Assembly (NCBI GenBank): GCA_964560325.1
Contig: CAZLLV010000407.1
Coordinates: forward strand, 1-40,669
Direction of reading: 5' to 3'
Source: an uncultured Thermoanaerobaculia bacterium
Lineage (GTDB): Bacteria; Acidobacteriota; Thermoanaerobaculia; Multivoradales; DATKCC01
DNA length: 40,669 bases
Shown: in pieces, positions 8,073 to 38,956 of the stretch
How the letters are laid out: the number at the start of each line of letters is the position of its first letter
How positions within the stretch are numbered: position 1 is the stretch's first letter
The notes under the pieces: model-generated
Databases searched by the model: none
Seen by the model: the letters and a program-made list of their open reading frames with translations, nothing else
Told to the model about the DNA's origin: nothing
Made by a program: the position numbers and the translations under genes

Positions 8073-8157
8073 GCGCTCTCCTCGGGTGTCGTCGTTTCTC
8101 TACTCGTCCATCGTAGCATCCGCCGCGTCGCGGCACAAGGGCCGCATTGCGGCAAGC

Positions 8158-8169
8158 ACGAACGTTCGT
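8158..8169. promoter_or_regulatory. 12-bp perfect palindrome ACGAACGTTCGT upstream of the acyl-CoA dehydrogenase gene (candidate operator)
   Basis: Perfect dyad read directly, about 86 nt upstream of the ATG at 8072. Function is inferred only. Confidence 0.2.
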
Positions 8170-8249
8170 TTTTTCGCCGTGCACACGCCCTCGGGGTCAC
8201 GAGGGGTACCGACATCATACCGCGCTCGTCCGCCCGCCGGACGCCGCCC

Positions 8250-10115: not shown

Positions 10116-12560
10116 TCACTCCTCCTCGAGCCGTTCCCGCACGCGGGCGAGGTTCTTGGCGACGGTCCGGGTGTTCGGGTGCTCCGCACCGAGGATCGCC
10201 TCGGCAATCTCCAGCGCCCGGCGGTACTCCGCCTCGGCCGCGTCCAGGTGGCCCTGCTTCTCGAGGATGCCGGCGAGGTTGTTGCGGTCGGTCGCTACCT
10301 CGGGATGCTCCGGGCCATAGACCGCCTCGTCGATCGCCAGCGCCCGACGGGTCAGCTCCTCCGCACCCGCCAAGTCCCCATGAGCCTGAAGGATCTGGCC
10401 CAGGTTGTTCGCGTAGATAGCCACCTGCGGATGCTCCGAACCATAGACCGCCTCGGCGATCGCCAGCGCCCGCCGGGTCAGCTCCTCCGCACCCGCGAGG
10501 TCCCCGCGAGCCTGAAGGATGGTCGCCAGGTTGTTGGCGCGGATCGCCACGGTCGGATGCTCCGGGCCGTACACCGCCTCGCCGATCGCCAGCGCCCGCC
10601 GGGTCAGATCCTCCGCACCCGCCAGGTCCCCGCAATCCTGAAGGATCTGGCCCAGGTTGCTCGCGCATATCGCCACCTCGGGATGCTCCGGGCCGTACAC
10701 CGCCTCGGCGATCGCCAGCGCCCTGTCCAGGTGGTCCTGGGCCCGGTCGAGCACGCCCCGGTCCAGGAGCTGCAAGCCGGCTTCGTTCAGGAGCCGGCTG
10801 GTCGCCTCGGGCTCCACGCCGAGCTCTTCGGCCGCCTCGGTCGCGGCGGCCACGTGGGGGAGCAGGCGGAGGGCCGAATCCCAGGTGGCGAGGTCGTACC
10901 CGTCATACCCGTAGCCGGCGTCCAGCAGCCGGACGGCCGCCGCGGCCCAGGTGCGTTCCTCCTCTTCGCCCAGCCGGTCCCGGAGCACCGCCTGGACCAG
11001 CCGGTGGATGCCGGCGCTGCCGGCCTCGATCTCGAGCAGCGAGAGCCGGCGGGGCGCGGCCAGGACGTCGTGCCAGCGCAGCCGGTCGCGCGCGGCGGTG
11101 GCGAGGGGCTCCGGGAGGACCTCCGGGTGCTCGGCGCAGAGCGCCAGGGGCAGGTCCTCGGGGGCGAAGAAGGAGAGCAGCCGCAGCAGGTCGCCCGCCT
11201 CGGGGGCTTCCTTCTCCATCGCCTCGAAGGAGAGGTCCCAGGTGATCTCCACCGGCTCTTCCCGGTGGGAGCGCGGCGCCCCGCGGGCGAGGAGCTCGCT
11301 CCGGCGCTCCCGGAAAAGCTCCTCGTAGGCGGCGAGCGTCAGCGCCCCGTCCTCCCGGATGAACGCCCCCGCCTGCTCCAGCGCCAGCGGCAGGCGGCCG
11401 AGGGCCTCCGCCAGGCTCCGGGCGGCGGCGTCCTCTCCCGGGCCTTCCCCGCCGGGGCGCTCCCCGCTCGGATCGTCCGCCTTGCCCGGCGCCGTCCGCT
11501 CCAGGAGAAACTCTACCGCGTCGTCCAGCGGCAGCACGTCCACCGGCAGCTCCGCGGCGATCCCGTCCCAGTCGCGCCGGCGGGAGGTGATCAGCACCGG
11601 CCCGGTCCGGCCCCGGGGCAGGTAGGGCTCGAGCCCCGCCGGGTCCTCGGCGTTGTCGAAGACCAGCAGCCAGCCGCCGTTCGTCTCCAGCCACCGCCGG
11701 ACGGCGGCCACCTCGGCCTGCGGGTCCGGCGGTCCTTGCTCCGAGGGGGGATCGGCCAGCCCCAGCTCCGCCGCCAGGGCGGCCAGGTCCCGGACAATTG
11801 TCTCCGAGTCCGCGGCCCGGACCCACCAGATCACCCGGTACTCCCCCGCGTGCTGGTAGACGTACTCCAGCGCGAGCTGCGTCTTTCCGACCCCGCCGAG
11901 GCCCCGGATGGCCTGGGTCAGCGCTGCATGGGCCGGTGCCCGGTGGTTCGACGACCCAGCCGGGGCGAGCGCCTCCTCCAGTCGCGCCAGCAGATCCTCC
12001 CGCCCGATGAAGTGCGGATTGCGCCGATGAGGCACGTTGAAGTGCGGCGGCAACGCCCCCGGAAACGCCGGCTCCGAGACCGGCAGGCCGGCCTCCCCGC
12101 TCCCGCCGACACCGGCCCCGCCGGCCCCACCCCCGGGATACGCCGGCTCCTCCTCCGGCGGCCCGGGCGGCTCCAGACCGTCCAGAAGCGCCCGCCGGGC
12201 GCCCTCCGGCTCCTCGTGACCCACCAGGTCGATGTAGACGAGCGACCCCAGTAGCCCTCCAGGATCGCACTCCCGCACCCTCACCGGCACCAGCCGCCAC
12301 CCGCCCCCCTCCGGATCCTCCCGGAACCGCGCCGCCCACTCCGGCGCCACGTACCCGGAGCGCAGTGCGCTCGGCGACAGCACCAGCAGCGTCCGCCGCG
12401 TCTCCCGCGCCGCCCGGTCCATCTCCAGCGGAAAGTTCGCCCCCGGCCCCCAGGTCCACCCCTGGAGCTCCACCGAGTACCCCGCCTCCAGGAGCTGCCA
12501 CGCGATCCACTCCGCCCAGGCCTTGTCCGCCGAGGAGAAGCTGACGAAGAAATCCTTCAT
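10116..12560 (-). CDS. TIR domain / NB-ARC STAND NTPase / TPR-repeat protein (bacterial NLR-like)
   Basis: Start chosen at ATG 12560 (MKDFFVSFSSADKAWAEWIAWQL...), where the TIR-like fold begins; a candidate catalytic Glu lies in YVAPEWAARF (nt 12339-12341). P-loop GLGGVGKTQLA (11880-11903), Walker B LLVFDNAED, an ARC-like region (LPLALEQAG), then five 42-aa TPR units at the C-terminus. Confidence 0.9.
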   Translation of the reverse strand: MKDFFVSFSSADKAWAEWIAWQLLEAGYSVELQGWTWGPGANFPLEMDRAARETRRTLLVLSPSALRSGYVAPEWAARFREDPEGGGWRLVPVRVRECDPGGLLGSLVYIDLVGHEEPEGARRALLDGLEPPGPPEEEPAYPGGGAGGAGVGGSGEAGLPVSEPAFPGALPPHFNVPHRRNPHFIGREDLLARLEEALAPAGSSNHRAPAHAALTQAIRGLGGVGKTQLALEYVYQHAGEYRVIWWVRAADSETIVRDLAALAAELGLADPPSEQGPPDPQAEVAAVRRWLETNGGWLLVFDNAEDPAGLEPYLPRGRTGPVLITSRRRDWDGIAAELPVDVLPLDDAVEFLLERTAPGKADDPSGERPGGEGPGEDAAARSLAEALGRLPLALEQAGAFIREDGALTLAAYEELFRERRSELLARGAPRSHREEPVEITWDLSFEAMEKEAPEAGDLLRLLSFFAPEDLPLALCAEHPEVLPEPLATAARDRLRWHDVLAAPRRLSLLEIEAGSAGIHRLVQAVLRDRLGEEEERTWAAAAVRLLDAGYGYDGYDLATWDSALRLLPHVAAATEAAEELGVEPEATSRLLNEAGLQLLDRGVLDRAQDHLDRALAIAEAVYGPEHPEVAICASNLGQILQDCGDLAGAEDLTRRALAIGEAVYGPEHPTVAIRANNLATILQARGDLAGAEELTRRALAIAEAVYGSEHPQVAIYANNLGQILQAHGDLAGAEELTRRALAIDEAVYGPEHPEVATDRNNLAGILEKQGHLDAAEAEYRRALEIAEAILGAEHPNTRTVAKNLARVRERLEEE
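10179..10745 (-). repeat. 126-bp tandem repeat inside the CDS, encoding the TPR units
   Basis: Units start at 10179, 10305, 10431, 10557 and 10683, a period of exactly 126 nt. The three central units share long identical runs, e.g. GATCGCCAGCGCCCGCCGGGTCAG.TCCTCCGCACCCGC. Confidence 0.9.
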
Positions 12561-12769
12561 GGCTGCGGAGTGTATCGGTGGACGAGAGACCGAGAGCAGG
12601 CGGTCTGCCGAGAGGAGTCGCGACTCAGAGAGTCGGGCGAACCTGATGGGGATGAACGTCTCTCCAGGGCTCACCGCCGGAGCGGGCTGGGGCCGAAACG
12701 ATTCCGGGAGCGCCGCCATATCCTGAAGGAATCAAGCAAGCCATCCAATCCACTGACGCTGGAGGTCTC

Positions 12770-14374
12770 ATGAAAGCAGCCTTCCGTCCCGCCCTCCTTG
12801 CAGGGTCCCTCTGTCTCGCCGCCGCCCTGCCGGCCGCCGCCACCACCTACGTGATGATGGAGGACGCGGCGCTCGCCGATCAGGCTTCGATCATCGTCGA
12901 GGGTCGGATCGAATCCGCGGCCCGGGCTTCGGACGCTCCCTATGCCGCCACCGAGTACACGGTCGCGGTGACGCGGACGATCCAGGGGACTACCTCCGGC
13001 GACACCGTCGAGGTCCGGGTCCTGGGCGGGCTCCCCCGGGACGACGGCCCCTGGTTCCACGCCTGGGGCGTGCCACGGTTCCAGCCGGGAGAAGCGGTCC
13101 TGCTCTTCCTCTCGCCCCGGCCGGACGCCCGGCTCGAGCTGGTCCAGCTCGCCCTCGGCGCCTTCCGAAGCGTCGCCCGCGAGGGGCGGCGCTTCGCCGT
13201 CCGGCCGGAGCTCTCGGCCCACGGCCTGGGGGGCCCGGACCGGGTCCGGGACCTCGATGCATTCGCCGACTGGCTCGCCGACCGCGCCCGCGGGATCTCG
13301 CGCCCGGCCGACTACTTCACCGACCCGCCGGCGGGAGGGGTCGCCCGGCTCGCCGAGCGCTTCACTCTCTTCGAGGACGAGTCCGGCAGGAACTTTCGCT
13401 GGTTCGATTTCGACCAGGGGCTCACGGTCGACTTCCGGGCCAACGCCTCCGGGCAGTCCGGCATGGCCGGGGGCGGATTCGCGGAGGTGACCCACGGACT
13501 CTGGGTGTGGAACCTGGACAAGAAGTCGAACGTCGCCCTGCGCAACCGGGGCGAGACGAGCTATTCCGGGCGCTTCGGCTACTGCGACGGGTACAACCTC
13601 GTCCTCTTCGACGACCCCCACGACGAGATCTCGGGGAGCTACGACTGCGACCGCGGAGGGACCCTCGCGATCGGCGGAGGGTGCGTGAACGGCACCGGGA
13701 CGTTCGAGGGCAAGCAGTACTGGCGGATCAGCGAAGGGGACATCCTCACCCAAGACGGCGCCGGCTGCGCCTACGGGGCGGCCGGGGGCAAGGTGGGCGA
13801 GTACGTCTTCGGGCACGAGGCGGGCCACACCCTGGGGATCGGCCACTCCTGCGGCAACCCCGGCAACGACCCCGGCTGCTCGAATCCGGCGGCGGCCGCC
13901 GCGATCATGGCGGCCTCCGTCTCGGCGCGGGCGGTTCACGGGGCGAGCCTGGGCCACGACGATCGCGCCGCCGTCAGGACGCTCTACCCGGAGGCTGACG
14001 ACGGCGGTGGCGAGGAGCCGTCCGACGGCTGGCTCACCACCCGCGAGATTCCGGGCTTCCGGTTCCGGGTCACCATCCTCCCCGGTGGGGACGCCGAGCC
14101 CGTCCCCGGCGCCAAGGAGGACGGCTGCCTGGCGGAGACTCTGTGCGTGAGCGGCGCCATCGCGGGCCGGGTGGAGGTCCAGCTCCGGATCTCGGGCCCG
14201 AAGCCCAACGGCAAGCTGTGGCCCACCTTCACCAAGTTCACGACCTCCGCGGTGGAGATCGACGTGGAGCAGACCTCGTCCGGAGTGGTGAAGTCCTACG
14301 ACCTCACCGGCGCGGGCCCCGGAGACGACACGTTGAACGGCCTCTTCGACCGGGACGGCTTCGACCCGTCGTAA
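12770..14374 (+). CDS. Secreted matrixin/serralysin-like (M10-type metzincin) zinc metalloprotease with a C-terminal module
   Basis: GGAGG RBS. Signal peptide MKAAFRPALLAGSLCLAAALPAAA. Zinc site HEAGHTLGIGHS (13814-13849) fits HExxHxxGxxH, with a candidate Met-turn at AIMAAS. The C-terminal ~110 aa (14027-14362) resemble the module in the 2310..4328 protein. Confidence 0.85.
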   Translation: MKAAFRPALLAGSLCLAAALPAAATTYVMMEDAALADQASIIVEGRIESAARASDAPYAATEYTVAVTRTIQGTTSGDTVEVRVLGGLPRDDGPWFHAWGVPRFQPGEAVLLFLSPRPDARLELVQLALGAFRSVAREGRRFAVRPELSAHGLGGPDRVRDLDAFADWLADRARGISRPADYFTDPPAGGVARLAERFTLFEDESGRNFRWFDFDQGLTVDFRANASGQSGMAGGGFAEVTHGLWVWNLDKKSNVALRNRGETSYSGRFGYCDGYNLVLFDDPHDEISGSYDCDRGGTLAIGGGCVNGTGTFEGKQYWRISEGDILTQDGAGCAYGAAGGKVGEYVFGHEAGHTLGIGHSCGNPGNDPGCSNPAAAAAIMAASVSARAVHGASLGHDDRAAVRTLYPEADDGGGEEPSDGWLTTREIPGFRFRVTILPGGDAEPVPGAKEDGCLAETLCVSGAIAGRVEVQLRISGPKPNGKLWPTFTKFTTSAVEIDVEQTSSGVVKSYDLTGAGPGDDTLNGLFDRDGFDPS

Positions 14375-16640: not shown

Positions 16641-17528
16641 ATGGCACAGCCCGCCCGCCCACCCGGCGCCCCTCCCGGCCGGCCGCGCCCCTTCACCGTC
16701 GCGACGCGCGACGGGCTCGACCTGATCGTCGAGAGCCGGACTCCGAGTCGGGCTCCGAGCCGGGCCCCCCGGACCACTTCCGAGCCCGGACGCCGCGTGC
16801 TCATCGTCCACGGCTTCGGCGAGCACCACCGCCGCTACGACACGCTGACCGGCGAGCTCACGGCGGCCGGCCACGAGGTCCACCGCTTCGACCTCCGCGG
16901 GCACGGCGAGTCGGAAGGGCGGCGCGGCCACGTCGACGATTTCGCCGAGTACCGGCGCGACCTCCTGCGCGTCGCCGACCACGTGGCCCCTGACGGGCCG
17001 CTCGACCTGGTCGCCCACAGTCTCGGCGGGTTGATCGCTCTCGATACCGCGCTCCACCACCCGGACCGCTTCGCCTCGCTCGCGCTGAGCGACCCGTTCC
17101 TCGCCCCCTCCTCCGAGCTCCCGTTCTACGCCCGGCCGCTCGCGAACCTGGCCGTCCGCTTCCGGCCCGGCGCCACCTTCTCCGCCGGGATCGACCCGGA
17201 GGGGCTGTCGCGCGATTCGGAGGCGGTGCGCGCCTACGTCGCCGACCCGATGATCGTCCGGCGGGTCACCGGCGGCTGGCTGCTCGAGGTGCTCGCGGCG
17301 CAGGTGCGGGTGCGCTCGCGGGCCGACGAAATCCGCCTGCCGGTCCTGCTGCTCCTGGGCGGCGCCGACCCGATCGCGTCGGTCGAGCGGTCGCGCGAGG
17401 TCTTCGAGCGGCTCGGGAGCGAGCGCAAGCGCCAGGTGGCCTTCGACGGCTTCCGCCACGAGATCCTCCACGAGCTCGGGCGCGAGCGGGTGGTCGGGGA
17501 GCTGCTCGCCTGGCTGGCCGGCCTATAA
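16641..17528 (+). CDS. Alpha/beta hydrolase, lysophospholipase / monoacylglycerol-lipase-like
   Basis: Start at ATG 16641. HGFGEHHRRYD, nucleophile elbow AHSLGG, C-terminal FDGFRHEILHE (His of the triad). The stop overlaps the stop of the convergent patatin gene by 6 nt. Confidence 0.85.
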   Translation: MAQPARPPGAPPGRPRPFTVATRDGLDLIVESRTPSRAPSRAPRTTSEPGRRVLIVHGFGEHHRRYDTLTGELTAAGHEVHRFDLRGHGESEGRRGHVDDFAEYRRDLLRVADHVAPDGPLDLVAHSLGGLIALDTALHHPDRFASLALSDPFLAPSSELPFYARPLANLAVRFRPGATFSAGIDPEGLSRDSEAVRAYVADPMIVRRVTGGWLLEVLAAQVRVRSRADEIRLPVLLLLGGADPIASVERSREVFERLGSERKRQVAFDGFRHEILHELGRERVVGELLAWLAGL

Positions 17529-20500
17529 CCCGTCCGGTGCCTCACCCCGACATTCGTCCGGACACTCGATCGGCACCCGCAGGCTGCTCTGGAACTCGGG
17601 CGGCCCCCAGCTCTCGACCATCCCGATCCGTTCGTCGAGGTCCTCGCCGGCCTGGTCGATCATCCGCTTGACCGTGGTGGCGCGGAAGTCGGTGAGGATC
17701 GGCCAGTCGTCGGCCGGCGGCGGCGCGATCGAGGCGACGAAGAGGTCGGAACGGCTCCGCCGGTCGAGCTGCTGCGAGCGCTCGTAGAGGAACCCGAGGA
17801 GCCGCGGGACGTTGTCGACCAGCGGCCCGCCGAGCGCCGTCAGCCAGCCGCCATCGGAGGAATCCGGGCGCGGGTTCGACGAGTGGATCACCAGCGCCTG
17901 GCGAGCGCCGATCTTCGCCGCCGCCTCGATCGGCACGTTGTTGCTGTAGCCGCCGTCGACCAGCGCCTCCCGGGTCGGGGACGCGTCCTCGCGCGCGGCG
18001 CCCTCCTCGCCGTGGATGCGCACCAGCTTCGGCGGGAAGGCGGGAAACGGCGAGCCGGAGGCGAAGATGTAGTTCTGGAGCTCCTCCCGGTCCGCCTGCG
18101 TCCCCAGCGCCAGGGGAGTGCAGTCGTCCGCTCGCGTGCTCGTGCCGGCGGAGCCGCCCTCGCGGACCGCCCGAAACTTTCGCCACGTCACCCCCGGCGC
18201 CGTCGGCACCGCCGGGCACGCGTGGTCGTCGGGCACCGCCAGCACGAAGCGGGTGCCGTCGAGCGCGAGGGCGTTGGCGGGGGCGAGGTAGCGGGCGGTC
18301 AGGCGGTACGAGGAGCGGTCGTGGCTCTTGCGGTACTCCGCCTCGAAGCGCTCCTCGGCGCTCTCCATGTAGTCGAAGGCGTAGCGGTTGCCGTAGAGCG
18401 CCGGCGCGAGCAGGAAGTTCCACCACACGAGGCCGCCCAGGGCCATCGCTCCCAGCCGCACGACGCGGCGCGGCACCAGGTGCGCGTTCGGGTGGATCGA
18501 GCAGAGGTAGGCGAGGGCGGCGGTGACCCCGCGCGAGAACGCACCGGCGCCTTCGCGGTTCCCCTTCCACGCCCAACGGACGAGCACCAGAGACCCGACG
18601 AGGCTGGCGACCGCGAGCCCGATCCAGAAGGACGGCGTCAGCTCGAACAGGGTCAGCGCCGCGAGCCGCCGGAAGCCGGCCGAGCCCGCGAGCCAGCCGG
18701 TCGCGTCCACGACCGAGATCAGTCGCACGACGAGCCAGAGGCCGGCGTAGACCGCGAAGGCGAGGCCGGTGACGACCAGGAGCACCGAGTCGCGGAAGCG
18801 CCCCTCGTCCTCCAGTCGATAGGCGTTGCGGCGGCGGTGGAGGACCAGGATCGTGCCGAGCAGGAGGAAGACGGCGCCGAGGCAGACGGCGAGCGGCCCC
18901 CGTGGCGCCTGGAGCTTCGATTCGGCGGTGAAGACCTCCACCACGCCGGCGCCATCGAACTCCGCCGCCTCGGGCCGCGTGAGGTCGAGCACGATCAGGC
19001 AGCCCAGGAACGCGACCGCGCCGAGCCCGAAGAGGCGCGCCGCGCGGTGCCCGAGGACGTCCTGGACGACGTCGACGCCGACGGCATAGGCCCTCCCCCA
19101 GAAACCGCGCTCCCATCGGCGCCGGGCCTCCGGCCCGTGGTCGACGCTTGCCGCGACCCGGACCGCGATCGCGATCAGGAGCCCGAGGCCGAGGACGAGG
19201 AAGAGAAGCGGCGTGCGGTCGATCCAGGCGAGCACCCGGACATCGGCGGCCTGGAGGATCCACCACGAGGCCAGGGTGCCGACCGTGAAAGTGGCCGGCC
19301 AGGCGAGGACGTTCCACCACCCGAAGCGCCGCAGCCGCCCCGCACCGACGGCGAGGAGGCCGACGCCGGCGGCCATCGAGCCGAGCACCAGATAAGAGCC
19401 GCCGGTCGTCACCAGTGTCTCGAGGGCCTGTGATTCGGGTGCTGCGAGCCGGACCAGCACCGGGATCGCCACCAGGACGCCGCCGACCAGGAGGAGGGCG
19501 ATCGGGACGACGGTCCGCAGGTCCGCCAGGAAAAACCTCCGCCCGGGCCCGCGCAACGGCGGCGCGTCCTTCGGAAGGTGCCGCTCGCGCCGGACGAGGC
19601 ACTGGTCGGCGTACATGCCGAGCACCAGCAGGACGGCGTAGAGAAGCCCCTCGAACTCGGGCACGTGCTCCTCGGCGAGCGGGCCACTGACCCACCGCAC
19701 GACGAGTGGAGTGAGACCCAGGAGCGCGAGCAGCGAGAGCCAGAGGACCGGGCGCACCGAAGGCTCGGCCTCCGGCTTTTCGCCGGCCGGCCGCCGCTCC
19801 GGCGCGAGGAACCCCCGGTGGCGCCAGGAGAAGGGGGCGAGCGCGAGACCGAAGATGCAGAAGATCAGCACCAGGCTCACGTAGCGCGGCAGGTCGGTCC
19901 AGCCGAAGATCTCCGACGCCGTCAGGTAGCGCTCGTCGTCGTCCGCGTCGGGCTTCCAGAGGATGCTCGAGAGCTCTCCCGGTCCGTGCGGTCCCAGCCG
20001 GGCGACGAAGAAGCCGAGCAGGGCGCCGCCGCTGGTGCCCACCACCGAGTCGACCTCGAGCGGGGTGGCCGCGGGGATGGCGACGTCGCCGGGCTGGACG
20101 CCGGCTCGGGCGCCACCGGAGGAAGAGGCGAAGACGAGCGACCGGTCGCGGTCGGGTGCCGGCAGGGTCTCCGGATTCGCCCCCGCATTGCGCAGCAGCG
20201 GTAGCCCGCGCGCCCCCTCCGCGTAGAGGTCGTCGAGCACCCGCGACTGGTAGGCCGCCTTGACGCCGCCGCCCGGGAGCACCAGCGCGAGCCGCCCTCG
20301 GCTCGAGATCCGCTGGTGGAGCTCGATCAGGTCGAGGGTCTCGCCGATCCGGAAGGCGAAGGTGCGGGTGCCGAAGTAGCCGTCGGGCGTGAGGAAGCCG
20401 TCGAAGGCCGAAGGGATCGGCGCCTGGGCCGGCCCCCCGACCGCCCGGTCGAGGACCTCGCGCAGGCGGTGGAGCTCGCCCCACGGTGGGGGCTCGGACT

Positions 20501-21467
20501 CCGGGAAGGAGTCGGGAGCGAAGACCGAGTCCGCGGCGCCGCGCCGGATCACCAGCCGGTCGCGGTACGCGAGCCGAGGGCCGAGCACCGGCGGCCCGTA
20601 CGGGTCGACCTCGCCGGAGAGCTCGTCGACCACCGCGACCTCGAGCCGTGGCGAGCCGGCCGCCGCCGCGCACGCCGTGCCGTCCCGCCGGCCGAGATCG
20701 GAGCCGAACCGAAAGCAGGTCCGCCGGTAGAAGGCGTCCCAGAACGCGCGCCGCGTCTCGGAGGAGGCCTCACGCTCGGGGTCGAGAGCGTCGAGGGCCT
20801 CGTCGACCGCGAGGATCGGCATGAGGAACCCCGCGGTCGACAGGTGGGACGGCATCACCAGGTGGCCCGGGTCGGTGGACGACCCCGCGCCGTGCCCGCC
20901 GCGCTCTGCCTGCCAGATACGCCGGGCGAGCTCTTCCAGGTCGCCGCCGTGTCCACTTCGCTCCTCGAACGCTCCGTCGACCACCGCCGAGTGCGTCAAC
21001 CGCGGCACTCGCCCGACGAGCTGCGCCATCTCCCGCGCCGCCGGGTCGGCGATCTCGAGCAGGTCGAGCCCGTCCCGGCGCAGCAGCTCGAAGCCGAGGA
21101 CCGGCACCACGCCCATGTCGACCAGCCCGCGGTCCAGCCAGTCGAGGATCTGATAGTCACTGCCGAGGGCGACGTTGATCCGCAGCGGCCGCGCGGGGCA
21201 GAGGGCGCAGGCGAGGTAGCGCTCTCCTACGACCGAGCGCAGCGACGCCTCGAGCTCCTCGAGCGTCACGCCCTCGACGACCGGCAGTCCGATGTTGAGG
21301 ATCTGCGGCAGCGGGTTGTCGCACTCGGGCGGCGGCACGGCCGGCGGCCGGCAGGCGAGCCCTTCCGTGGTGGAGGCGGCGAAGGTGGGAGCGGCGGCTC
21401 CGGCGAGCGCCAGGAGGAGGACGGTGCGCCGGGCGGCGCGGCGGATCGGGCTCGAACGCTGTCGCAT
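17523..21467 (-). CDS. Large membrane protein: signal peptide, PhnD-like binding-protein-like region, and a patatin-like phospholipase domain split by a multi-TM insertion
   Basis: Signal peptide MRQRSSPIRRAARRTVLLLALAGAAAPTFAAS. Region LRINVALGSDYQILDWLDRGLVDMGVVP. Patatin block I LVLPGGGVKAAYQ, block II VVGTSGGALLG (Ser479, nt 20031-20033). About 12 hydrophobic helices span residues ~527-1020. Then ASGSPFPAFPP and ALVDGGYSNNVPIEAA (Asp1171, nt 17955-17957). Confidence 0.85.
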   Translation of the reverse strand: MRQRSSPIRRAARRTVLLLALAGAAAPTFAASTTEGLACRPPAVPPPECDNPLPQILNIGLPVVEGVTLEELEASLRSVVGERYLACALCPARPLRINVALGSDYQILDWLDRGLVDMGVVPVLGFELLRRDGLDLLEIADPAAREMAQLVGRVPRLTHSAVVDGAFEERSGHGGDLEELARRIWQAERGGHGAGSSTDPGHLVMPSHLSTAGFLMPILAVDEALDALDPEREASSETRRAFWDAFYRRTCFRFGSDLGRRDGTACAAAAGSPRLEVAVVDELSGEVDPYGPPVLGPRLAYRDRLVIRRGAADSVFAPDSFPESEPPPWGELHRLREVLDRAVGGPAQAPIPSAFDGFLTPDGYFGTRTFAFRIGETLDLIELHQRISSRGRLALVLPGGGVKAAYQSRVLDDLYAEGARGLPLLRNAGANPETLPAPDRDRSLVFASSSGGARAGVQPGDVAIPAATPLEVDSVVGTSGGALLGFFVARLGPHGPGELSSILWKPDADDDERYLTASEIFGWTDLPRYVSLVLIFCIFGLALAPFSWRHRGFLAPERRPAGEKPEAEPSVRPVLWLSLLALLGLTPLVVRWVSGPLAEEHVPEFEGLLYAVLLVLGMYADQCLVRRERHLPKDAPPLRGPGRRFFLADLRTVVPIALLLVGGVLVAIPVLVRLAAPESQALETLVTTGGSYLVLGSMAAGVGLLAVGAGRLRRFGWWNVLAWPATFTVGTLASWWILQAADVRVLAWIDRTPLLFLVLGLGLLIAIAVRVAASVDHGPEARRRWERGFWGRAYAVGVDVVQDVLGHRAARLFGLGAVAFLGCLIVLDLTRPEAAEFDGAGVVEVFTAESKLQAPRGPLAVCLGAVFLLLGTILVLHRRRNAYRLEDEGRFRDSVLLVVTGLAFAVYAGLWLVVRLISVVDATGWLAGSAGFRRLAALTLFELTPSFWIGLAVASLVGSLVLVRWAWKGNREGAGAFSRGVTAALAYLCSIHPNAHLVPRRVVRLGAMALGGLVWWNFLLAPALYGNRYAFDYMESAEERFEAEYRKSHDRSSYRLTARYLAPANALALDGTRFVLAVPDDHACPAVPTAPGVTWRKFRAVREGGSAGTSTRADDCTPLALGTQADREELQNYIFASGSPFPAFPPKLVRIHGEEGAAREDASPTREALVDGGYSNNVPIEAAAKIGARQALVIHSSNPRPDSSDGGWLTALGGPLVDNVPRLLGFLYERSQQLDRRSRSDLFVASIAPPPADDWPILTDFRATTVKRMIDQAGEDLDERIGMVESWGPPEFQSSLRVPIECPDECRGEAPDGL

Positions 21468-21500: not shown

Positions 21501-22718
21501 TCAGGTCCCTGCCTGTAGTGAACGACGGAACACGATCCATTCCCCCACCCGCGGCATCGACCACCCGCGGGCGGTGGCGCCGCAGATCTTCGAGAGCGGG
21601 CGCGAGAGCGTCTGCTCGCCCTGCCGGAGCGCGCAGTCGGTGCGCTCCAGGAAGCGGTTCGCCATCCCCTCGGTCAGGGCCGGCACGAACCGGCACGGGG
21701 CGTCTCGCGGGCGGAAGAAGTCCTCGTAATGGGTGACGAGGACGTGGCGGGGCTTCAGGCTCTTCAGCAGAACCTCCGGGTAGCCCTCGACCAGGTTCGC
21801 GGAGGCCATGCAGGTCACCGCCAGGTCGTAGGCCACGCCGGACGCGGGTTCCAGCAGGTGCTCCGGCGGAATGCCGTTCGGCTCGCGCCCGGCGTCGCTC
21901 GCCGAGTCCTGGTAGTGGATGCGAAAGAGGGGCGGCGCCTCCGGCCGCTCGGGGTCGAGGAGGTCGATGACGAAGGCGTGCGGCCGGCCCTCCCTGAGGC
22001 TCGAGTAGCGGCGGGGCCGCCCCCACTCGTCCGGCGGACGCGGTTTCGTCTCGTTCTTCATCAGGTGGACCTTCCAGAGGTGGGGCGCGTGGCTCGACGG
22101 CAGCGGGTGGACGCGAAACGGCAACGGACGCCCGGCGGCGTCGCGCAGCCGGATCGAGCCGGCAGGGCCCTCCGGGTCGGTGCTCGGCTCGCAGGCCGCC
22201 CCGGCCCCCTCCTCTCCCGCTACCGGCTCCACGCAGTCGACCCGGCCGGAAAGGCCGGCGTGCTCCGAGAGGACGGTATGGGCGGACGCGTTGACGTAGA
22301 TGCGGGCGTCGCGGGTGAATCGCTCCGCGATGAACGACACGTCGCCCAGGTGATCGTAGTGCGAGTGGCCGACCAGGATCGCCCCCACCCGCCCCGTGCG
22401 CAGGCCGCGGAGCGCGCGAACGACGTCCCCCCGGCGCGTGCGGACGCGGCCGAAGCCGACCTCGATCAGGTCCGGGTTCGAGAAGAACGGCCCGGCGAGG
22501 AGCGCCTCGCCCCGCCACTCGACGTAGAGCCCGCCGGCGCCCAGGGAGCGCACCAGCACGTCGTCCGGACCGACCTCGGCCGGGCGGGTGGAGGCGGGGC
22601 AATCCGGCTCACGAAAGTCGAACCGCGGCGCCTGGTCGAAATCGAGATCGGGCGACACCGCATGGCCGCAACCGGCCAAGCAAGCGGCGAAGAAGGCCAG
22701 AAAGACTCTACGGGACAC
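21501..22718 (-). CDS. Metallo-beta-lactamase-fold hydrolase lipoprotein (Lactamase_B_2 / NAPE-PLD-like)
   Basis: HxHxDH motif VGHSHYDHLGD. Lipoprotein signal VSRRVFLAFFAACLAGCGH (lipobox LAGC) if translation starts at GTG 22718; the longest ORF would start at 22808. The gene ends 33 nt upstream of the patatin gene start. Confidence 0.8.
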   Translation of the reverse strand: MSRRVFLAFFAACLAGCGHAVSPDLDFDQAPRFDFREPDCPASTRPAEVGPDDVLVRSLGAGGLYVEWRGEALLAGPFFSNPDLIEVGFGRVRTRRGDVVRALRGLRTGRVGAILVGHSHYDHLGDVSFIAERFTRDARIYVNASAHTVLSEHAGLSGRVDCVEPVAGEEGAGAACEPSTDPEGPAGSIRLRDAAGRPLPFRVHPLPSSHAPHLWKVHLMKNETKPRPPDEWGRPRRYSSLREGRPHAFVIDLLDPERPEAPPLFRIHYQDSASDAGREPNGIPPEHLLEPASGVAYDLAVTCMASANLVEGYPEVLLKSLKPRHVLVTHYEDFFRPRDAPCRFVPALTEGMANRFLERTDCALRQGEQTLSRPLSKICGATARGWSMPRVGEWIVFRRSLQAGT

Positions 22719-22746
22719 GAGAGGATTGTCGCACGTTCCCAAGCGG

Positions 22747-22761
22747 TCCGGGAGCTCCCGA
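22747..22761. repeat. 15-nt element TCCGGGAGCTCCCGA containing the perfect palindrome CGGGAGCTCCCG (copy 1)
   Basis: Read directly. It lies about 30 nt upstream of the proposed GTG start of the MBL lipoprotein gene. Confidence 0.6.
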
Positions 22762-22883
22762 GCCGGGGGCGTCACGGGCCGCGCGTGCCACGAGCAGTGT
22801 CGGTGCACTTCGGGAAAGCGCGGACCGTGCCGAGGCGGGCGCCCTGCGCCCTCGGAGCTCGACAGCGCCCGCCGTCCCCCGGA

Positions 22884-25494: not shown

Positions 25495-26558
25495 CGCGCG
25501 AGCCCCCGGATCGCCTCGACGGCACGGTCGATGCCCGCCCGGTCGACGTCGCGGTGGGTGACGAGGCGGGCGCGGGTCTCGCTGATCCGGCCGCCCAGCA
25601 CGCCCCCGGCCTTCAAACGGTCGAGCAGCTCGTCGACCGGGTCGCGGTCCTCCGGCGGGCCCGCCCCAGAAGAGCCGAACAGCTCCCGCCCGACCCCGAA
25701 GACCACGAGGTTGGTCTCCACCCGATCGAGGTCGATCGTGATCCCCGGCAGCTCGGCCAGCGCCTCGGCCAGCAAGCGTGCGTGGGCGTGGTCCTCCGGC
25801 AGCCGGGCCGGCCCCTCTTCGAGCGCGACCAGCCCGGCGGCGGCGATCACCCCCGCCTGCCGCATGCCGCCGCCGAACATCTTGCGGACCCGCCGCGCCT
25901 CGCCGACGAAGTCCGCCGGACCGCAGAGCATCGAGCCGACCGGCGCACCGAGCCCCTTCGAGAGCGAGAACATGACCGACGAGGCGCCGGAGGCGAGCCG
26001 CGCGACCGGCACCCCGAGCGCCGCGGCGGCGTTGAAGACGCGGGCGCCGTCGAGGTGGATCGGCAGCCGGTGCCGGCGGGCGACCGCGACGACCGCGTCG
26101 AGCTCCTCCGGCCGGTAGACGGTGCCGCCGGCGACGTTGTGGCTGGTCTCGACCCAGACCAGGACGGTGCGGGCGCGCAGGCTGGTGTCCGCCGCGACCG
26201 CCCGGTCGACCGCTGTCGGATTGAGCTGGCCCCAAGGCGTCTCGAGCGCCTTCGGCAGGAGACCCGAGAGCGCCGCCATGCCGCCCATCTCGTAGTGCAG
26301 GACGTGGGAGCGGGAGTCGCAGATCACCTCGCCGCCCGGGGTGCCGTGGACGTGGAGCGCGACCTGGTTGCCCATCGTGCCGGACGGCATGTAGATCGCC
26401 GCTTCCTGCCCCGTAGCCTCCGCCGCCCGCTCCTCCAGCCGCCGGACGGTCGGGTCCTCCCGCATCACGTCGTCGCCGACCTCGGCCTCGGCCATCGCGC
26501 GGCGCATCGCCGCGTCCGGCCGGGTGACCGTGTCGGACCTGAGATCGACGGGAATCAC
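25491..26558 (-). CDS. ltaE: Low-specificity L-threonine aldolase (PLP-dependent)
   Basis: MIPVDLRSDTVTRPDAAMRRAM...GDDVMREDPTVRRLE...PSGTMGNQ...HLDGARVFNAA...FSLSKGLGAPVGS (PLP Lys in SLSKG). Confidence 0.9.
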   Translation of the reverse strand: MIPVDLRSDTVTRPDAAMRRAMAEAEVGDDVMREDPTVRRLEERAAEATGQEAAIYMPSGTMGNQVALHVHGTPGGEVICDSRSHVLHYEMGGMAALSGLLPKALETPWGQLNPTAVDRAVAADTSLRARTVLVWVETSHNVAGGTVYRPEELDAVVAVARRHRLPIHLDGARVFNAAAALGVPVARLASGASSVMFSLSKGLGAPVGSMLCGPADFVGEARRVRKMFGGGMRQAGVIAAAGLVALEEGPARLPEDHAHARLLAEALAELPGITIDLDRVETNLVVFGVGRELFGSSGAGPPEDRDPVDELLDRLKAGGVLGGRISETRARLVTHRDVDRAGIDRAVEAIRGLAR

Positions 26559-27313
26559 AACCCGATCGCGATGCGCACCGCGCCCTGAAGGCTCTCGCCC
26601 TGCTCCAGCTCGAAGGTGATCTTCGGCACCCAGAGGTTGAGGATCACGCCGCCGTAGACGAAGCCGTGATCGGTCTCGACGTCATAGTCGCTGCCGAATC
26701 GCTCGAAGGTGCTCTCGCTCCGCGCCCAGCCGGCGCCGGCGTACGGCGTGAGGATCGTGAACCCCTTCGAGATCAGCACCTCGGCGCCGACCTGGCGCAG
26801 CTCGTAGGAATCGTCGCTCGCCTGCTGGCCGGTCACCCGCAGGCCGACCGCCGGCACCGCCAGACCGCCTTCGAGGATCGCCCAGGAGAGCTCGCCGGAG
26901 AGGAACTCGAGGTCGGAGTCGTACGCCTTGCCGACGGCGGCCCCGATGTCGAAGCCGCCCGGCAACCCCTTGCGCGCCCCGACCCGGTAGATGCCGAGGT
27001 GGCCGCTCGGCAGGTCGTCGGTCAGCGCGGTCCCCTCCTCCGTCCGCACCTCGTCCTCGAAGTCGGGCGTCACCGCCGCGTCGGCCCAGACGTCGAAGCC
27101 GATCCACCCGAGCGGCTTGGCGCTGTGCCGCGGGTAGAAGTAGGCGGACGACGCGAACTGGTCGTGGAACGCCTCGAGCGCCACCGGCGAAGCCTCCCCG
27201 TCCGGCTCCCAGGCAGAGGCGGATGGGGCGGCAGCCAGGGCCGCGGCGAAGCAGAGGATAGTCGTAGCGAAGCGCGTCGGCCCGCGCCGGCGCCCGGGGA
27301 TCGAGTCGGCCAT
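26555..27313 (-). CDS. Hypothetical secreted protein, probably an outer-membrane beta-barrel
   Basis: Signal peptide ...TTILCFAAALAAAPSASA. Alternating hydrophobic beta-strand pattern with aromatic girdle residues. There is a 4-nt overlap with the ltaE start. Confidence 0.6.
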   Translation of the reverse strand: MADSIPGRRRGPTRFATTILCFAAALAAAPSASAWEPDGEASPVALEAFHDQFASSAYFYPRHSAKPLGWIGFDVWADAAVTPDFEDEVRTEEGTALTDDLPSGHLGIYRVGARKGLPGGFDIGAAVGKAYDSDLEFLSGELSWAILEGGLAVPAVGLRVTGQQASDDSYELRQVGAEVLISKGFTILTPYAGAGWARSESTFERFGSDYDVETDHGFVYGGVILNLWVPKITFELEQGESLQGAVRIAIGL

Positions 27314-36994: not shown

Positions 36995-37076
36995 GGAATC
37001 GTGTCCCCCTTTATTGGATCGCCGGATCGATGCTCGCGATCCGCTCCGTCCACATTCCATTTCAAGATCGACGCCA

Positions 37077-37106
37077 GCCCGCTCCCGGTGCGGGGCGGGA
37101 GCGGGC
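37077..37106. promoter_or_regulatory. 11-bp perfect-stem hairpin in the divergent ubiB / decarboxylase intergenic region
   Basis: GCCCGCTCCCG (37077-37087), 8-nt loop, CGGGAGCGGGC (37096-37106). A second stem CGAGAT/ATCTCG follows about 20 nt downstream. Confidence 0.3.
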
Positions 37107-37180
37107 GCCGGTGCAGTCTGTGCATCGAGATCGAATCGTGAAATCTCGGAGCTGAAACATTCGAAAGAAGGAGCCATTCC

Positions 37181-38878: not shown

Positions 38879-38956
38879 CCGCCGGTCATTCGGCGGCTCC
38901 GCGACCCCTAAGTCGCGGCGGTCACGGGGGAAACGCGTGCTATCCTCCGCCGAAGA

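What the first reader, a model, noticed from the sequence alone, without database searches (positions are those of the whole stretch)
17523..21467. Patatin-like phospholipase whose catalytic Ser and Asp are separated by a ~690-residue multi-TM insertion
Seen:
- Canonical patatin blocks I and II (PGGGVKAAYQ; VVGTSGGALLG, Ser479).
- About 12 hydrophobic helices across residues ~527-1020.
- Then the canonical late patatin blocks (ASGSPFPAFPP; ALVDGGYSNNVPIEAA, Asp1171).
- Upstream of the patatin part there is a cleavable signal peptide and a region resembling PhnD-type periplasmic binding proteins (LRINVALGSDYQILDWLDRGLVDMGVVP).

Established: in characterised patatins (plant patatin, ExoU, CapV, PNPLAs) the Ser-Asp dyad lies within one compact domain of roughly 150-200 aa.

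Inference: this is a lipase fold interrupted by a large integral-membrane module. It might couple ligand binding or membrane state to phospholipase activity. I am not aware of a described example, but I cannot search to confirm that.
Basis: partly seen in the sequence, partly recalled or inferred. Interest (0 to 1): 0.7.

Follow-up and report, generated by a model that had tools for sequence, protein, structure and literature searches.

The report
Patatin lipase split by membrane module
This is a real, conserved bacterial gene for a lipid-cleaving enzyme of the patatin type whose catalytic domain is cut in two by a 12-helix membrane module and fused to a periplasmic binding domain, an arrangement I found described nowhere.

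Summary
ORF 17523-21467 (-) encodes 1314 aa with uniform coding signal (GC3 about 0.93). Pfam Patatin matches in two pieces: aa 395-507 to profile positions 1-64, and aa 1113-1183 to 133-190. Deleting aa 529-1024 in silico gives one contiguous match to profile 1-190. Ser479 and Asp1171 lie 692 residues apart with 12 hydrophobic helices between them.

This is not a chimera. More than 100 homologues, mostly from Thermoanaerobaculia and Holophagales MAGs, share the layout with all four patatin blocks invariant. A profile of the membrane module alone finds only 176 proteins among 1.84 billion. Every full-length one carries the split patatin.

Loop charges, a signal peptide and co-conserved cysteine pairs place both patatin halves and the N-terminal domain in the periplasm. 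AlphaFold2 gives pTM 0.89. Foldseek recognises patatin structures, and PhnD/PtxB-type binding proteins for the N-domain.

A periplasmic MBL-fold lipoprotein gene and a convergent monoacylglycerol-lipase-like gene are conserved neighbours.

Best reading: an inner-membrane, periplasm-facing lipid acyl hydrolase whose membrane module replaces the soluble lid. Function is inferred, and Ser-Asp proximity could not be measured. It is a new variant of a known kind.

The parts
17523..21467 (-). Whole gene, 1314 aa: signal peptide, PBP-like domain, patatin N-part, 12-TM module, patatin C-part
   Evidence: ORF. Uniform GC3 of 0.93. More than 100 full-length homologues.
21378..21467 (-). aa 1-30: Arg-rich n-region plus hydrophobic core, with a putative signal peptidase I site TFA|AS
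   Evidence: Sequence. Hydrophobic N-terminus in 166/173 full-length relatives. Cleavage is not verified.
20292..21377 (-). aa 31-392: periplasmic type-2 binding-protein fold of PhnD/PtxB/AioX type. Invariant Y105, W110, H208, L209; co-conserved C49/C90.
   Evidence: AF2 pLDDT 88.8, pTM 0.88. Foldseek gives 160 PDB hits at E<=1e-3, led by XAC2383, PtxB, HtxB and PhnD. No Pfam hit. Cys pair.
19890..20291 (-). aa 393-526: patatin N-part. Contains oxyanion loop PGGGVK (398-403), nucleophile elbow GTSGG with Ser479 (codon 20031-20033), and interface motif DLPRY (525-529).
   Evidence: Pfam profile positions 1-64. Invariant G399-401, K403, G477, S479, G480, G481, D525, R528.
18405..19889 (-). aa 527-1021: 12-helix membrane module inserted in the patatin domain. 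TM5-8 (about aa 688-829) are absent in an 8-TM subclass. Conserved motifs: EHVPExEG (600), ADQC (621), LFELT (942), HPNxH..RRxxR (992-1004), WWN (1015-1017).
   Evidence: Hydropathy and K+R alternation 6/0/7/0/3/1/7/2/5/2/6. Alignment A4. No Pfam or PDB relative. Only 176 hits in 1.84e9 proteins, all in the same architecture.
17526..18404 (-). aa 1022-1314: patatin C-part. Contains APALYGN interface, block III ASGSPFP (1136-1142), catalytic VDGG with Asp1171 (codon 17955-17957), a C-terminal patatin segment, and co-conserved C1084/C1116.
   Evidence: Pfam profile positions 133-190. PlpD 5fqu alignment over the DGG block. Invariant S1137-P1142 and D1171-G1173.
21501..22808 (-). Upstream gene on the same strand, 33-nt gap: MBL-fold (Lactamase_B_2, HSHYDH motif) protein with a lipoprotein-type signal (FFAACLAG|C). 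Conserved partner.
   Evidence: Pfam. Sequence. Directly upstream on the same strand in 19/40 loci, and present in 24/46 loci. Weak, non-significant similarity to NAPE-PLD 4qn9 (E 0.08).
16641..17528 (+). Convergent gene, 295 aa, no signal peptide: monoacylglycerol-lipase/lysophospholipase-type alpha/beta hydrolase. Its 3' end overlaps the patatin gene by 6 nt. Conserved partner.
   Evidence: Pfam Hydrolase_4 at 6e-63. Best PDB hits are monoacylglycerol lipases: 6qe2 at 9e-41, M. tuberculosis and human MGL. Directly downstream and convergent in 23/37 loci. Start and overlap.

Best explanation
SHOWN
- One polypeptide with this order: signal peptide, PhnD-like binding-protein domain, first part of a patatin domain (oxyanion GGG, nucleophile Ser479), 12 transmembrane helices, and the rest of the patatin domain (block III, Asp1171).
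- The catalytic motifs are invariant across a family restricted almost entirely to Acidobacteriota (Thermoanaerobaculia, Holophagales).
- The membrane module occurs only in this context.

INFERRED FROM TOPOLOGY
- All soluble parts lie in the periplasm.
- The two patatin parts leave and re-enter the membrane side by side, so they can fold into one catalytic domain sitting on the periplasmic face of the inner membrane.

INFERRED MECHANISM
- The enzyme is a membrane-integral lipid acyl hydrolase, or possibly a transacylase.
- The membrane module is inserted about 45 residues after the nucleophile, in the variable region that forms the lid or cap in soluble patatins. It takes over the lid's job.
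- Its conserved periplasmic-interface residues (F521, D525, R528, E600, E942, F947, W948, W1016, N1017, P1022, Y1025, G1026, N1027) form a portal. Through it a lipid from the outer leaflet, or one handed over by the binding domain, reaches Ser479.
- The PhnD-like domain binds the phosphoryl head group or a phospho-product.
- The enzyme works in a three-gene lipid-turnover module. A periplasmic MBL-fold lipoprotein is a putative phosphodiesterase. A cytoplasmic monoacylglycerol-lipase-like esterase would finish deacylation after the partly deacylated lipid has crossed the bilayer, possibly through the membrane module.
For: Architecture:
- ORF and motifs.
- Split Pfam hit.
- Contiguous hit after in-silico splicing.
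- Invariant blocks I-IV and conserved interface residues.
- Family of 106 proteins at the 90% clustering level, 43 species loci, and 176 TM-module hits that always lie within a split patatin.

Topology:
- Alternating K+R loop counts, 34 on the inside against 5 on the outside.
- Signal-like N-terminus in 166/173 relatives.
- Cys pairs C49/C90 and C1084/C1116 are co-conserved, and the first pair is lost together in two sequences.
- The helix number is even in both subclasses, and the indel is exactly four helices.

Fold:
- AF2 pLDDT 86.9, pTM 0.89.
- Foldseek probability 1.0 to CapE, CapV, patatin and PlpD.
- N-domain matches PhnD, PtxB, HtxB and AioX.

Lipid context:
- MGL-like hydrolase convergent in 23/37 loci, and MBL lipoprotein upstream in 19/40.
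- Loci lacking these carry PAP2 (3 loci), LpxR or a fatty-acyl reductase next door.
- The surroundings are housekeeping genes (mutL, RNase III, AsnRS), and there are no PADLOC hits.
Against: - No coordinates were available, so Ser479-Asp1171 proximity and the position of the active site relative to the membrane are not measured.
- Foldseek alignments of 245-330 columns cannot span the insertion. They show only that a contiguous part, most likely the C-terminal part, has patatin-like structure.
- The substrate, the reaction type (hydrolase or acyltransferase) and any transport role of the membrane module are pure inference.
- The membrane module has no detectable relative and no internal repeat to guide function.
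- The MGL-like gene is convergent, so it is not co-transcribed.
- The MBL protein cannot be assigned an activity; its NAPE-PLD similarity is at E 0.08.
- About 40-50% of loci lack one partner.
- Topology rests on the positive-inside rule, not on a dedicated predictor or experiment.
Confidence: 0.55

Rival explanations
1. Scavenging importer. The membrane module is primarily a secondary transporter fed by the fused binding-protein domain, as in transporters with fused substrate-binding domains. The patatin domain deacylates exogenous (lyso)phospholipids, so that a glycerophospho-compound or fatty acid is captured and imported for catabolism.
For: - The PhnD-type fold usually serves uptake of small phosph(on)ate compounds.
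- Conserved polar residues lie on both membrane faces: D621, H992, N994, R1001 and R1004 on the cytoplasmic side.
- A cytoplasmic MGL-like esterase is a conserved neighbour.
- An acyl-CoA dehydrogenase gene is nearby at 6139-8184.
Against: - No similarity to any transporter family: Foldseek probability is below 0.16 for Nramp, GltTk and LeuT, and there is no Pfam hit.
- No internal or inverted repeat typical of transporters.
- The module never occurs as a stand-alone transporter.
- Four of the 12 helices are dispensable.
Confidence: 0.2
2. Envelope-lipid remodelling transacylase. Patatin enzymes can transfer acyl chains. The protein would move an acyl group from an inner-membrane phospholipid to a periplasmic or outer-membrane acceptor such as a lipoprotein, lipid A or an unusual acidobacterial lipid. 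This would be analogous to polytopic enzymes with periplasmic catalytic domains such as Lnt or OafA/OafB.
For: - Periplasmic orientation on a polytopic anchor.
- Neighbours in some loci are envelope-lipid enzymes: LpxR in L038, PAP2 in L003, L015 and L037.
- The gene sits in a core-genome location.
Against: - The commonest partners are hydrolases (MGL-like, MBL fold), which suggests breakdown rather than synthesis.
- No acceptor-specific domain is present.
- The analogy to Lnt and OafA rests on my own knowledge, not on any detected homology.
Confidence: 0.15
3. Ligand-gated membrane-destroying effector, for defence or suicide or as a toxin. The binding domain senses a signal and unleashes the phospholipase on the cell's own membrane, as cyclic nucleotides activate CapV and CapE.
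For: - The top structural matches are the CBASS effectors CapE and CapV.
- A sensor-like binding domain is fused.
- A TIR-NB-ARC-TPR gene lies 5 kb away.
Against: - No PADLOC hit for the protein or its neighbours.
- Synteny is with mutL, RNase III and AsnRS and is conserved across genera, which is typical of core genes rather than defence islands.
- The orientation is periplasmic, and there is no cyclase or sensor partner.
- The CapE/CapV similarity is only that of the common patatin fold (13-14% identity).
Confidence: 0.07
4. Artefact: two genes fused by a frameshift, an assembly chimera, or a long chance ORF in high-GC DNA.
For: High-GC DNA gives many long spurious ORFs, for example 35291-40528.
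Against: - GC3 is uniform at 0.93 in every segment.
- The same uninterrupted architecture appears in more than 100 proteins from independent assemblies and sources, including contigs up to 8.7 Mb and complete MAG chromosomes.
Confidence: 0.02

Closest known systems
PlpD of Pseudomonas aeruginosa (type Vd secretion; PDB 5fqu/5fya)
   Same: Bacterial patatin-like lipase with a Ser-Asp dyad that is extracytoplasmic and tethered to a membrane. It is the best PDB sequence relative of the DGG half (E 2.4e-4 with the family profile) and a Foldseek hit.
   Different: In PlpD the patatin domain is contiguous and is followed by POTRA and an outer-membrane beta-barrel. Here an alpha-helical inner-membrane module is inserted inside the catalytic domain, and a binding-protein domain precedes it.
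CBASS phospholipase effectors CapE and CapV (PDB 9ion, 8zr9)
   Same: Top structural matches (probability 1.0, TM-score normalised to target 0.40-0.41). Same patatin core and dyad.
   Different: They are soluble cytoplasmic proteins of about 300-340 aa, activated by cyclic nucleotides and encoded in defence operons. Identity is 13-14%. There is no membrane module, no binding-protein domain and no PADLOC match here.
Cytosolic phospholipase A2 alpha (own knowledge: Ser228/Asp549, with a cap of about 180 aa between the dyad residues)
   Same: Precedent for a large insertion between the nucleophile Ser and the catalytic Asp of a patatin-type fold, where the insertion forms the lid over the active site.
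   Different: The cPLA2 cap is soluble and about 180 aa. Here the insertion is about 500 aa of 12 (or 8) transmembrane helices. No homology to cPLA2 was tested.
PhnD/PtxB/HtxB/AioX periplasmic binding proteins
   Same: The N-domain model matches these type-2 binding proteins (160 hits at E<=1e-3). The SHLSTxG motif resembles the anion-binding Ser/Thr loop of PhnD; that point is from memory and was not tested.
   Different: They are stand-alone components of ABC transporters or sensor partners. Here the fold is fused to an enzyme. Pfam PF12974 is not matched (E 0.28 in 1 of 30 members).
Polytopic membrane enzymes with periplasmic catalytic domains and the LplT-Aas lysophospholipid system (own knowledge: Lnt, OafA/OafB AT3-SGNH)
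   Same: Working analogy: a helical membrane part handles the lipid or acyl group, a periplasmic domain does the chemistry, and a cytoplasmic partner finishes processing.
   Different: In those systems the domains are fused end to end, or the soluble domain is inserted in the membrane part. Here the membrane part is inserted in the soluble fold. No sequence or fold similarity was detected.

Membership tests
Patatin-like phospholipase (Pfam PF01734 / PNPLA domain) | Profile score above the curated threshold | tested here: met
   40 bits against a cut-off of 27.7 for the whole protein. All 30 members scanned match, best E 9.3e-15.
Patatin-like phospholipase (Pfam PF01734 / PNPLA domain) | Gly-rich oxyanion motif GGGx[RK] | tested here: met
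   PGGGVK at aa 398-403. G399-G401, V402 and K403 are invariant in 30 homologues.
Patatin-like phospholipase (Pfam PF01734 / PNPLA domain) | Nucleophile elbow GxSxG | tested here: met
   G477-T-S479-G-G481, invariant.
Patatin-like phospholipase (Pfam PF01734 / PNPLA domain) | Catalytic Asp in a DG[AG] motif, plus the ASxxxP block | tested here: met
   D1171-G-G and A1136-S-G-S-P-F-P are invariant or nearly so. They align to the PlpD DGG block.
Patatin-like phospholipase (Pfam PF01734 / PNPLA domain) | Single contiguous domain with Ser and Asp roughly 120-320 residues apart | tested here: not met
   Ser-Asp separation is 692 aa here, and 425-750 aa across the family. Reference values: PNPLA9 Ser465/Asp598 (PMC12871566). 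The profile match is contiguous only after in-silico removal of aa 529-1024.
Patatin-like phospholipase (Pfam PF01734 / PNPLA domain) | Patatin three-layer alpha/beta/alpha fold with the dyad assembled | tested here: inconclusive
   Foldseek probability 1.0 to CapE, CapV, patatin and PlpD, and a confident model.
Patatin-like phospholipase (Pfam PF01734 / PNPLA domain) | Lipid acyl hydrolase activity dependent on Ser and Asp | not testable with these tools
   Needs an enzyme assay of wild type against S479A and D1171A.
Type-2 periplasmic binding protein, PhnD/Phosphonate-bd subfamily (PF12974) | Two-lobe alpha/beta binding-protein fold | tested here: met
   AF2 pLDDT 88.8. Foldseek top hits are XAC2383, PtxB, HtxB and PhnD at E 1.7e-6 to 3e-5, with 160 hits at E<=1e-3.
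Type-2 periplasmic binding protein, PhnD/Phosphonate-bd subfamily (PF12974) | Sequence-profile membership | tested here: not met
   No Pfam hit for aa 1-383 at E<=10. PF12974 appears at E 0.28 in only 1 of 30 members. No binding protein appears in the PDB profile search.
Type-2 periplasmic binding protein, PhnD/Phosphonate-bd subfamily (PF12974) | Binding of a phosph(on)ate-type ligand in the inter-lobe cleft | not testable with these tools
   Needs ligand screening or a structure. Invariant Y105, W110, H208 and L209 are candidate pocket residues only.
Anti-phage defence phospholipase effectors (CBASS CapV/CapE type) | Match to defence-system models and a defence-operon context | tested here: not met
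   No PADLOC hits for the protein or its neighbours. The neighbours are mutL, RNase III, AsnRS and lipid hydrolases.

The most novel reading that the evidence does not exclude
The 8-12-helix module is a previously unseen lipid-handling membrane fold that has replaced the lid of a soluble hydrolase. It extracts a lipid from the bilayer into the periplasmic patatin active site, then passes the partly deacylated product across the membrane to a cytoplasmic monoacylglycerol-lipase partner. A phospho-head-group-binding domain gates the process. This would be a self-contained trans-membrane lipolysis machine, and the first case of a polytopic membrane domain inserted within the catalytic dyad of an alpha/beta-type lipase.
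Probability: 0.25. Interest if true: 0.8.

Novelty: new variant of a known kind. Interest (0 to 1): 0.62.

Why it matters
Patatin-like lipases (PNPLAs, ExoU, CapV, plant patatin) are all interfacial enzymes. They must be recruited to membranes or lipid droplets, and how substrate leaves the bilayer to reach the buried Ser-Asp dyad is a central mechanistic question.

Here evolution has hard-wired the answer. A polytopic membrane domain is spliced into the fold at the lid position, with conserved residues at the membrane-enzyme junction. A structure of this protein could show a lipid path from bilayer to patatin active site directly.

The finding also adds three other things:
- a rare example of a large membrane domain inserted within a soluble catalytic fold
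- a membrane module with no detectable relatives
- a candidate lipid-turnover module (MBL lipoprotein, split patatin, MGL-like esterase) in Thermoanaerobaculia and Holophagales, abundant but uncultured soil and sediment Acidobacteriota whose envelope biology is almost unknown

Tried and rejected
1. Sequence searches for the membrane module and the N-domain. Pfam, NCBIfam and PDB phmmer/hmmsearch gave nothing significant. The only hits were Nitrate_red_gam at E 0.025-0.14, PEF-CTERM at 0.94 and reaction-centre L at 1.2, all regarded as noise.

2. Foldseek of the 965-aa model for the membrane part. Only low-probability transporter hits appeared (Nramp, GltTk, MraY, LeuT, probability below 0.16). 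I rejected these as evidence.

3. Internal-repeat test of the three 4-helix units with hhalign. Probability was below 1%, so there is no repeat.

4. Defence-system hypothesis. PADLOC was negative.

5. Searching the N-domain alone for stand-alone relatives. This returned only 3 fragments of the same family and was uninformative.

6. An N-domain-only profile for a PDB search. My trimming of alignment A3 failed because the tail was misaligned, and I abandoned it.

7. Reading the model coordinates in the sandbox to measure the Ser-Asp distance. No structure files are exposed.

8. Seven literature searches for a described TM-interrupted patatin or a binding-protein-patatin fusion. None was relevant. 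The library lacks most subscription journals, so absence is not proof.

9. Direct-coupling analysis between the two halves. I considered it but did not run it, because about 150 full-length sequences are too few for roughly 420 columns.


Full report

Yes. The ORF 17523..21467 on the minus strand encodes 1314 aa from an ATG. The window is about 72% GC, a composition that produces many long spurious ORFs. I therefore checked codon-position composition. GC3 is 0.93-0.94 and GC2 about 0.5 in each of the four segments: N-domain, first patatin part, membrane region, C-terminal part. That is the signature of one genuine reading frame.

- PGGGVKAAYQ at 398-407
- VVGTSGGALLG at 475-485 (Ser479)
- ASGSPFPAFPP at 1136-1146
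- ALVDGGYSNNVPIEAA at 1168-1183 (Asp1171)

The dyad residues are 692 positions apart.

**2. Is the patatin domain really split?**

Pfam PF01734 matches the protein above its curated threshold (40 against 27.7 bits) in two stretches. Scanning sub-fragments shows aa 395-507 aligned to profile positions 1-64 and aa 1111-1183 to positions 133-190 of 191.

I then joined aa 393-528 directly to aa 1025-1314 in silico. The match became one contiguous alignment over profile positions 1-190, with a better score (49 bits, E 1.1e-12). So the roughly 500 residues in between interrupt one patatin domain rather than separating two partial ones.

Against PDB sequences, the only relatives are patatin proteins aligned on the DGG block. 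These are PlpD 5fqu (E 2.4e-4 with the family profile) and CapE 9iom.

**3. The membrane module and topology**

Family-averaged hydropathy gives 12 helices between aa 527 and 1021. K+R counts in the connecting loops alternate 6/0/7/0/3/1/7/2/5/2/6, which is 34 positive charges on one side and 5 on the other. By the positive-inside rule, the segment before TM1 and the segment after TM12 are both outside the cytoplasm.

Three further observations fit a periplasmic location:
- The N-terminus looks like a signal peptide: six Arg, a hydrophobic core, then TFA|AS. 166 of 173 full-length relatives have such a segment.
- Two cysteine pairs are co-conserved, C49/C90 in the N-domain and C1084/C1116 in the C-terminal patatin part. 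The first pair is lost together in two sequences, as expected for periplasmic disulfides.
- The helix number is even in both size classes.

No dedicated topology predictor or experiment backs this, so the periplasmic orientation is a well-supported inference.

**4. Not an assembly artefact: a conserved family**

A search of 5.8 billion proteins found 106 relatives of 960-1500 aa, all carrying PF01734. They are named at most "hypothetical", "RssA" or "patatin-like phospholipase family protein".

In an alignment of 30 diverse full-length members (29-64% identity), several positions are invariant:
- the oxyanion loop (G399-G401, V402, K403)
- the nucleophile elbow (G477, S479, G480, G481)
- block III (S1137-P1142)
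- D1171-G-G
- residues at the two junctions with the membrane (F521, D525, R528, S531; W1016, N1017, A1021, P1022, Y1025, G1026, N1027)
- a few residues inside the module (P587, E600, G607, D621, G864, E942, F947, W948, R1001, R1004)

The family has two size classes. In one, Ser-Asp gaps are about 560-700 aa with roughly 12 helices. In the other they are 465-490 aa with roughly 8 helices. The alignment shows the short class lacks exactly TM5-TM8, so the indel preserves parity. That is what one expects if both patatin parts must stay on the same side.

**5. How widespread is it, and does the module occur elsewhere?**

A scan of one genome per GTDB species found 43 loci. Nearly all are MAGs labelled Thermoanaerobaculia, Holophagales or Acidobacteriota. 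Four carry other labels: Rokubacteria, Planctomycetota, Polyangia and Pseudomonadota. No cultured isolate appeared.

A profile of the membrane module alone (A4) was scored against 1.84 billion representative proteins. It found only 176 proteins at E<=1e-3. Every hit longer than about 900 aa has GGG and the Ser motif before the module and DGG after it. The shorter hits contain one side or the other and look like fragments.

The module therefore has no life of its own. It has no Pfam, NCBIfam or PDB relative and no internal repeat.

**6. Structure predictions**

- aa 350-1314, predicted with a 105-sequence alignment: mean pLDDT 86.9 and pTM 0.89, with values above 90 in both patatin parts and most helices.
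- Foldseek against the PDB: the only credible matches are patatin-family structures, namely CapE, CapV, plant patatin and PlpD (probability 0.99-1.0, target-normalised TM-score 0.35-0.44). Transporter hits to the helical part have probability below 0.16.
- The Foldseek alignments are 245-330 columns long, so they cannot bridge the insertion.
- The tools do not expose coordinates.

I therefore could not measure the Ser479-Asp1171 distance. The high pTM argues for a fixed mutual arrangement of all three parts. Reassembly of the dyad remains inferred from sections 2-4, not seen.

- The N-domain (aa 31-392): pLDDT 88.8, pTM 0.88.
- It matches 160 PDB chains at E<=1e-3, led by XAC2383, PtxB, HtxB, PhnD, FutA1 and AioX, which are type-2 periplasmic binding proteins for phosph(on)ate-like anions.

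**7. Genomic context**

In the window the gene is preceded, 33 nt upstream on the same strand, by an MBL-fold protein (HSHYDH motif) with a lipoprotein signal.

At its 3' end it overlaps a convergent gene by 6 nt. That gene encodes a 295-aa alpha/beta hydrolase without a signal peptide. Its best PDB relatives are monoacylglycerol lipases: 6qe2 at E 9e-41, then M. tuberculosis and human MGL.

Beyond these lie mutL, RNase III and AsnRS.

Across 46 non-redundant related loci:
- the MGL-like gene is directly downstream and convergent in 23 of 37 loci with enough flank
- the MBL gene is directly upstream on the same strand in 19 of 40
- the MBL gene is somewhere in the locus in 24 of 46

This holds down to about 31-35% identity of the patatin protein.

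Loci lacking them have other lipid enzymes next door: a PAP2 phosphatase in three, LpxR in one, and a fatty-acyl reductase in one. PADLOC finds no defence signature.

**8. How it most likely works**

Shown: the architecture, the conservation and the exclusive association of the module with the split patatin.

Inferred with good support: periplasmic orientation of all soluble parts, and reassembly of a functional Ser-Asp patatin domain on the outer face of the inner membrane.

Inferred more loosely:
- The insertion lies about 45 residues after the nucleophile, in the variable region that forms the lid or regulatory segment in soluble patatins (PMC12871566). From my own knowledge, cPLA2 carries a soluble 180-aa cap in the equivalent place.
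- Most invariant residues of the module cluster at its periplasmic rim, next to the two junctions. I therefore propose that the module replaces the lid and forms a portal that feeds a bilayer lipid to Ser479.
- The PhnD-like domain plausibly binds a phosphoryl head group or product.
- The conserved partners suggest a turnover pathway. The periplasmic MBL lipoprotein would act as a phosphodiesterase, the patatin would remove an acyl chain, and the remaining mono-acyl lipid would cross the membrane, perhaps via the module. Conserved polar residues on the cytoplasmic side (D621, H992, N994, R1001, R1004) fit such a crossing. The cytoplasmic MGL-like esterase would then finish the job.

I put 0.55 on this package. 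That breaks down to about 0.9 for the architecture and topology and about 0.35-0.4 for the specific portal and pathway mechanism.

Rivals are an importer-centred reading (0.2), a transacylase for envelope-lipid remodelling (0.15), a ligand-gated self-destructive effector (0.07) and an artefact (0.02).

**9. Comparison with known systems and novelty**

By motif, profile score and fold match it belongs to the patatin superfamily. It fails one usual property, a contiguous domain with the dyad 120-320 residues apart.

The nearest relatives all have uninterrupted patatin domains:
- PlpD is tethered by a C-terminal outer-membrane barrel.
- CapV and CapE are soluble.
- From my own knowledge, NTE/PNPLA6 has an N-terminal anchor.

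Seven full-text searches found no description of a membrane-interrupted patatin or a binding-protein-patatin fusion. The library is incomplete, so this is absence of evidence.

I rate it a new variant of a known kind: known chemistry, unprecedented architecture, with a membrane module of unknown fold family. Interest is 0.62. It would surprise lipase and membrane-protein specialists and offers a natural system for seeing how a lipid passes from bilayer to a patatin active site. Its function is unproven, and the family is confined to uncultured Acidobacteriota.

Noticed in passing
window 10116-12719 (-): An 867-aa protein with TIR_2, NB-ARC and multiple TPR domains. This is a STAND/NLR-like architecture typical of bacterial immune sensors, and it lies about 5 kb from the patatin locus.
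   Followed up: no
window 17523-17528: The patatin gene and the convergent MGL-like hydrolase gene overlap by 6 nt. Each gene's stop codon is the reverse complement of the other's last Leu codon (CTA/TAA). Tight convergent spacing, from -16 to +70 nt, recurs in related loci.
   Followed up: partly
A4 alignment; window aa 688-829 (nt about 18981-19406): The family splits into a 12-TM class and an 8-TM class that differ by exactly four helices (TM5-8). The 8-TM core carries all the invariant residues.
   Followed up: partly
L003 3947-5740, L015 3866-5467, L037 4151-5764; L038 4583-5710; L036 4768-5892: In loci that lack the MBL lipoprotein, the gene next to the split patatin is a PAP2-type phosphatase (three loci), the outer-membrane lipid A deacylase LpxR, or a fatty-acyl reductase (NAD_binding_4). 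These are again lipid or envelope enzymes.
   Followed up: partly
L041, L045, L046, L047: Four homologue-bearing MAGs are labelled Rokubacteria, Planctomycetota, Polyangia and Pseudomonadota rather than Acidobacteriota. This could reflect horizontal transfer, mis-binning or mislabelling.
   Followed up: no
window 35291-40528 (-): A 1745-aa mechanical ORF fails the codon-position GC test and lies antisense to a real Orn/Arg decarboxylase gene at 37181-38878 (+). It is almost certainly a high-GC artefact.
   Followed up: partly
window 6139-8184 (-) and 2310-4328 (+): A very-long-chain-type acyl-CoA dehydrogenase (with an ACAD9/ACADV C-terminal domain) and a reprolysin-like M12 metallopeptidase lie upstream in the window. 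The former is loosely compatible with fatty-acid catabolism nearby.
   Followed up: no
window aa 49/90 and 1084/1116 (nt 21198-21200, 21321-21323; 18120-18122, 18216-18218): Two co-conserved cysteine pairs, 27/30 and 23-24/30 sequences. The first pair is lost together in two sequences. These are candidate periplasmic disulfides in the binding domain and in the C-terminal patatin part.
   Followed up: partly
window 12770-14374 (+) and 26555-27313 (-): Two ORFs with good coding statistics (534 aa and 252 aa) have no Pfam match at E<=1e-5.
   Followed up: no
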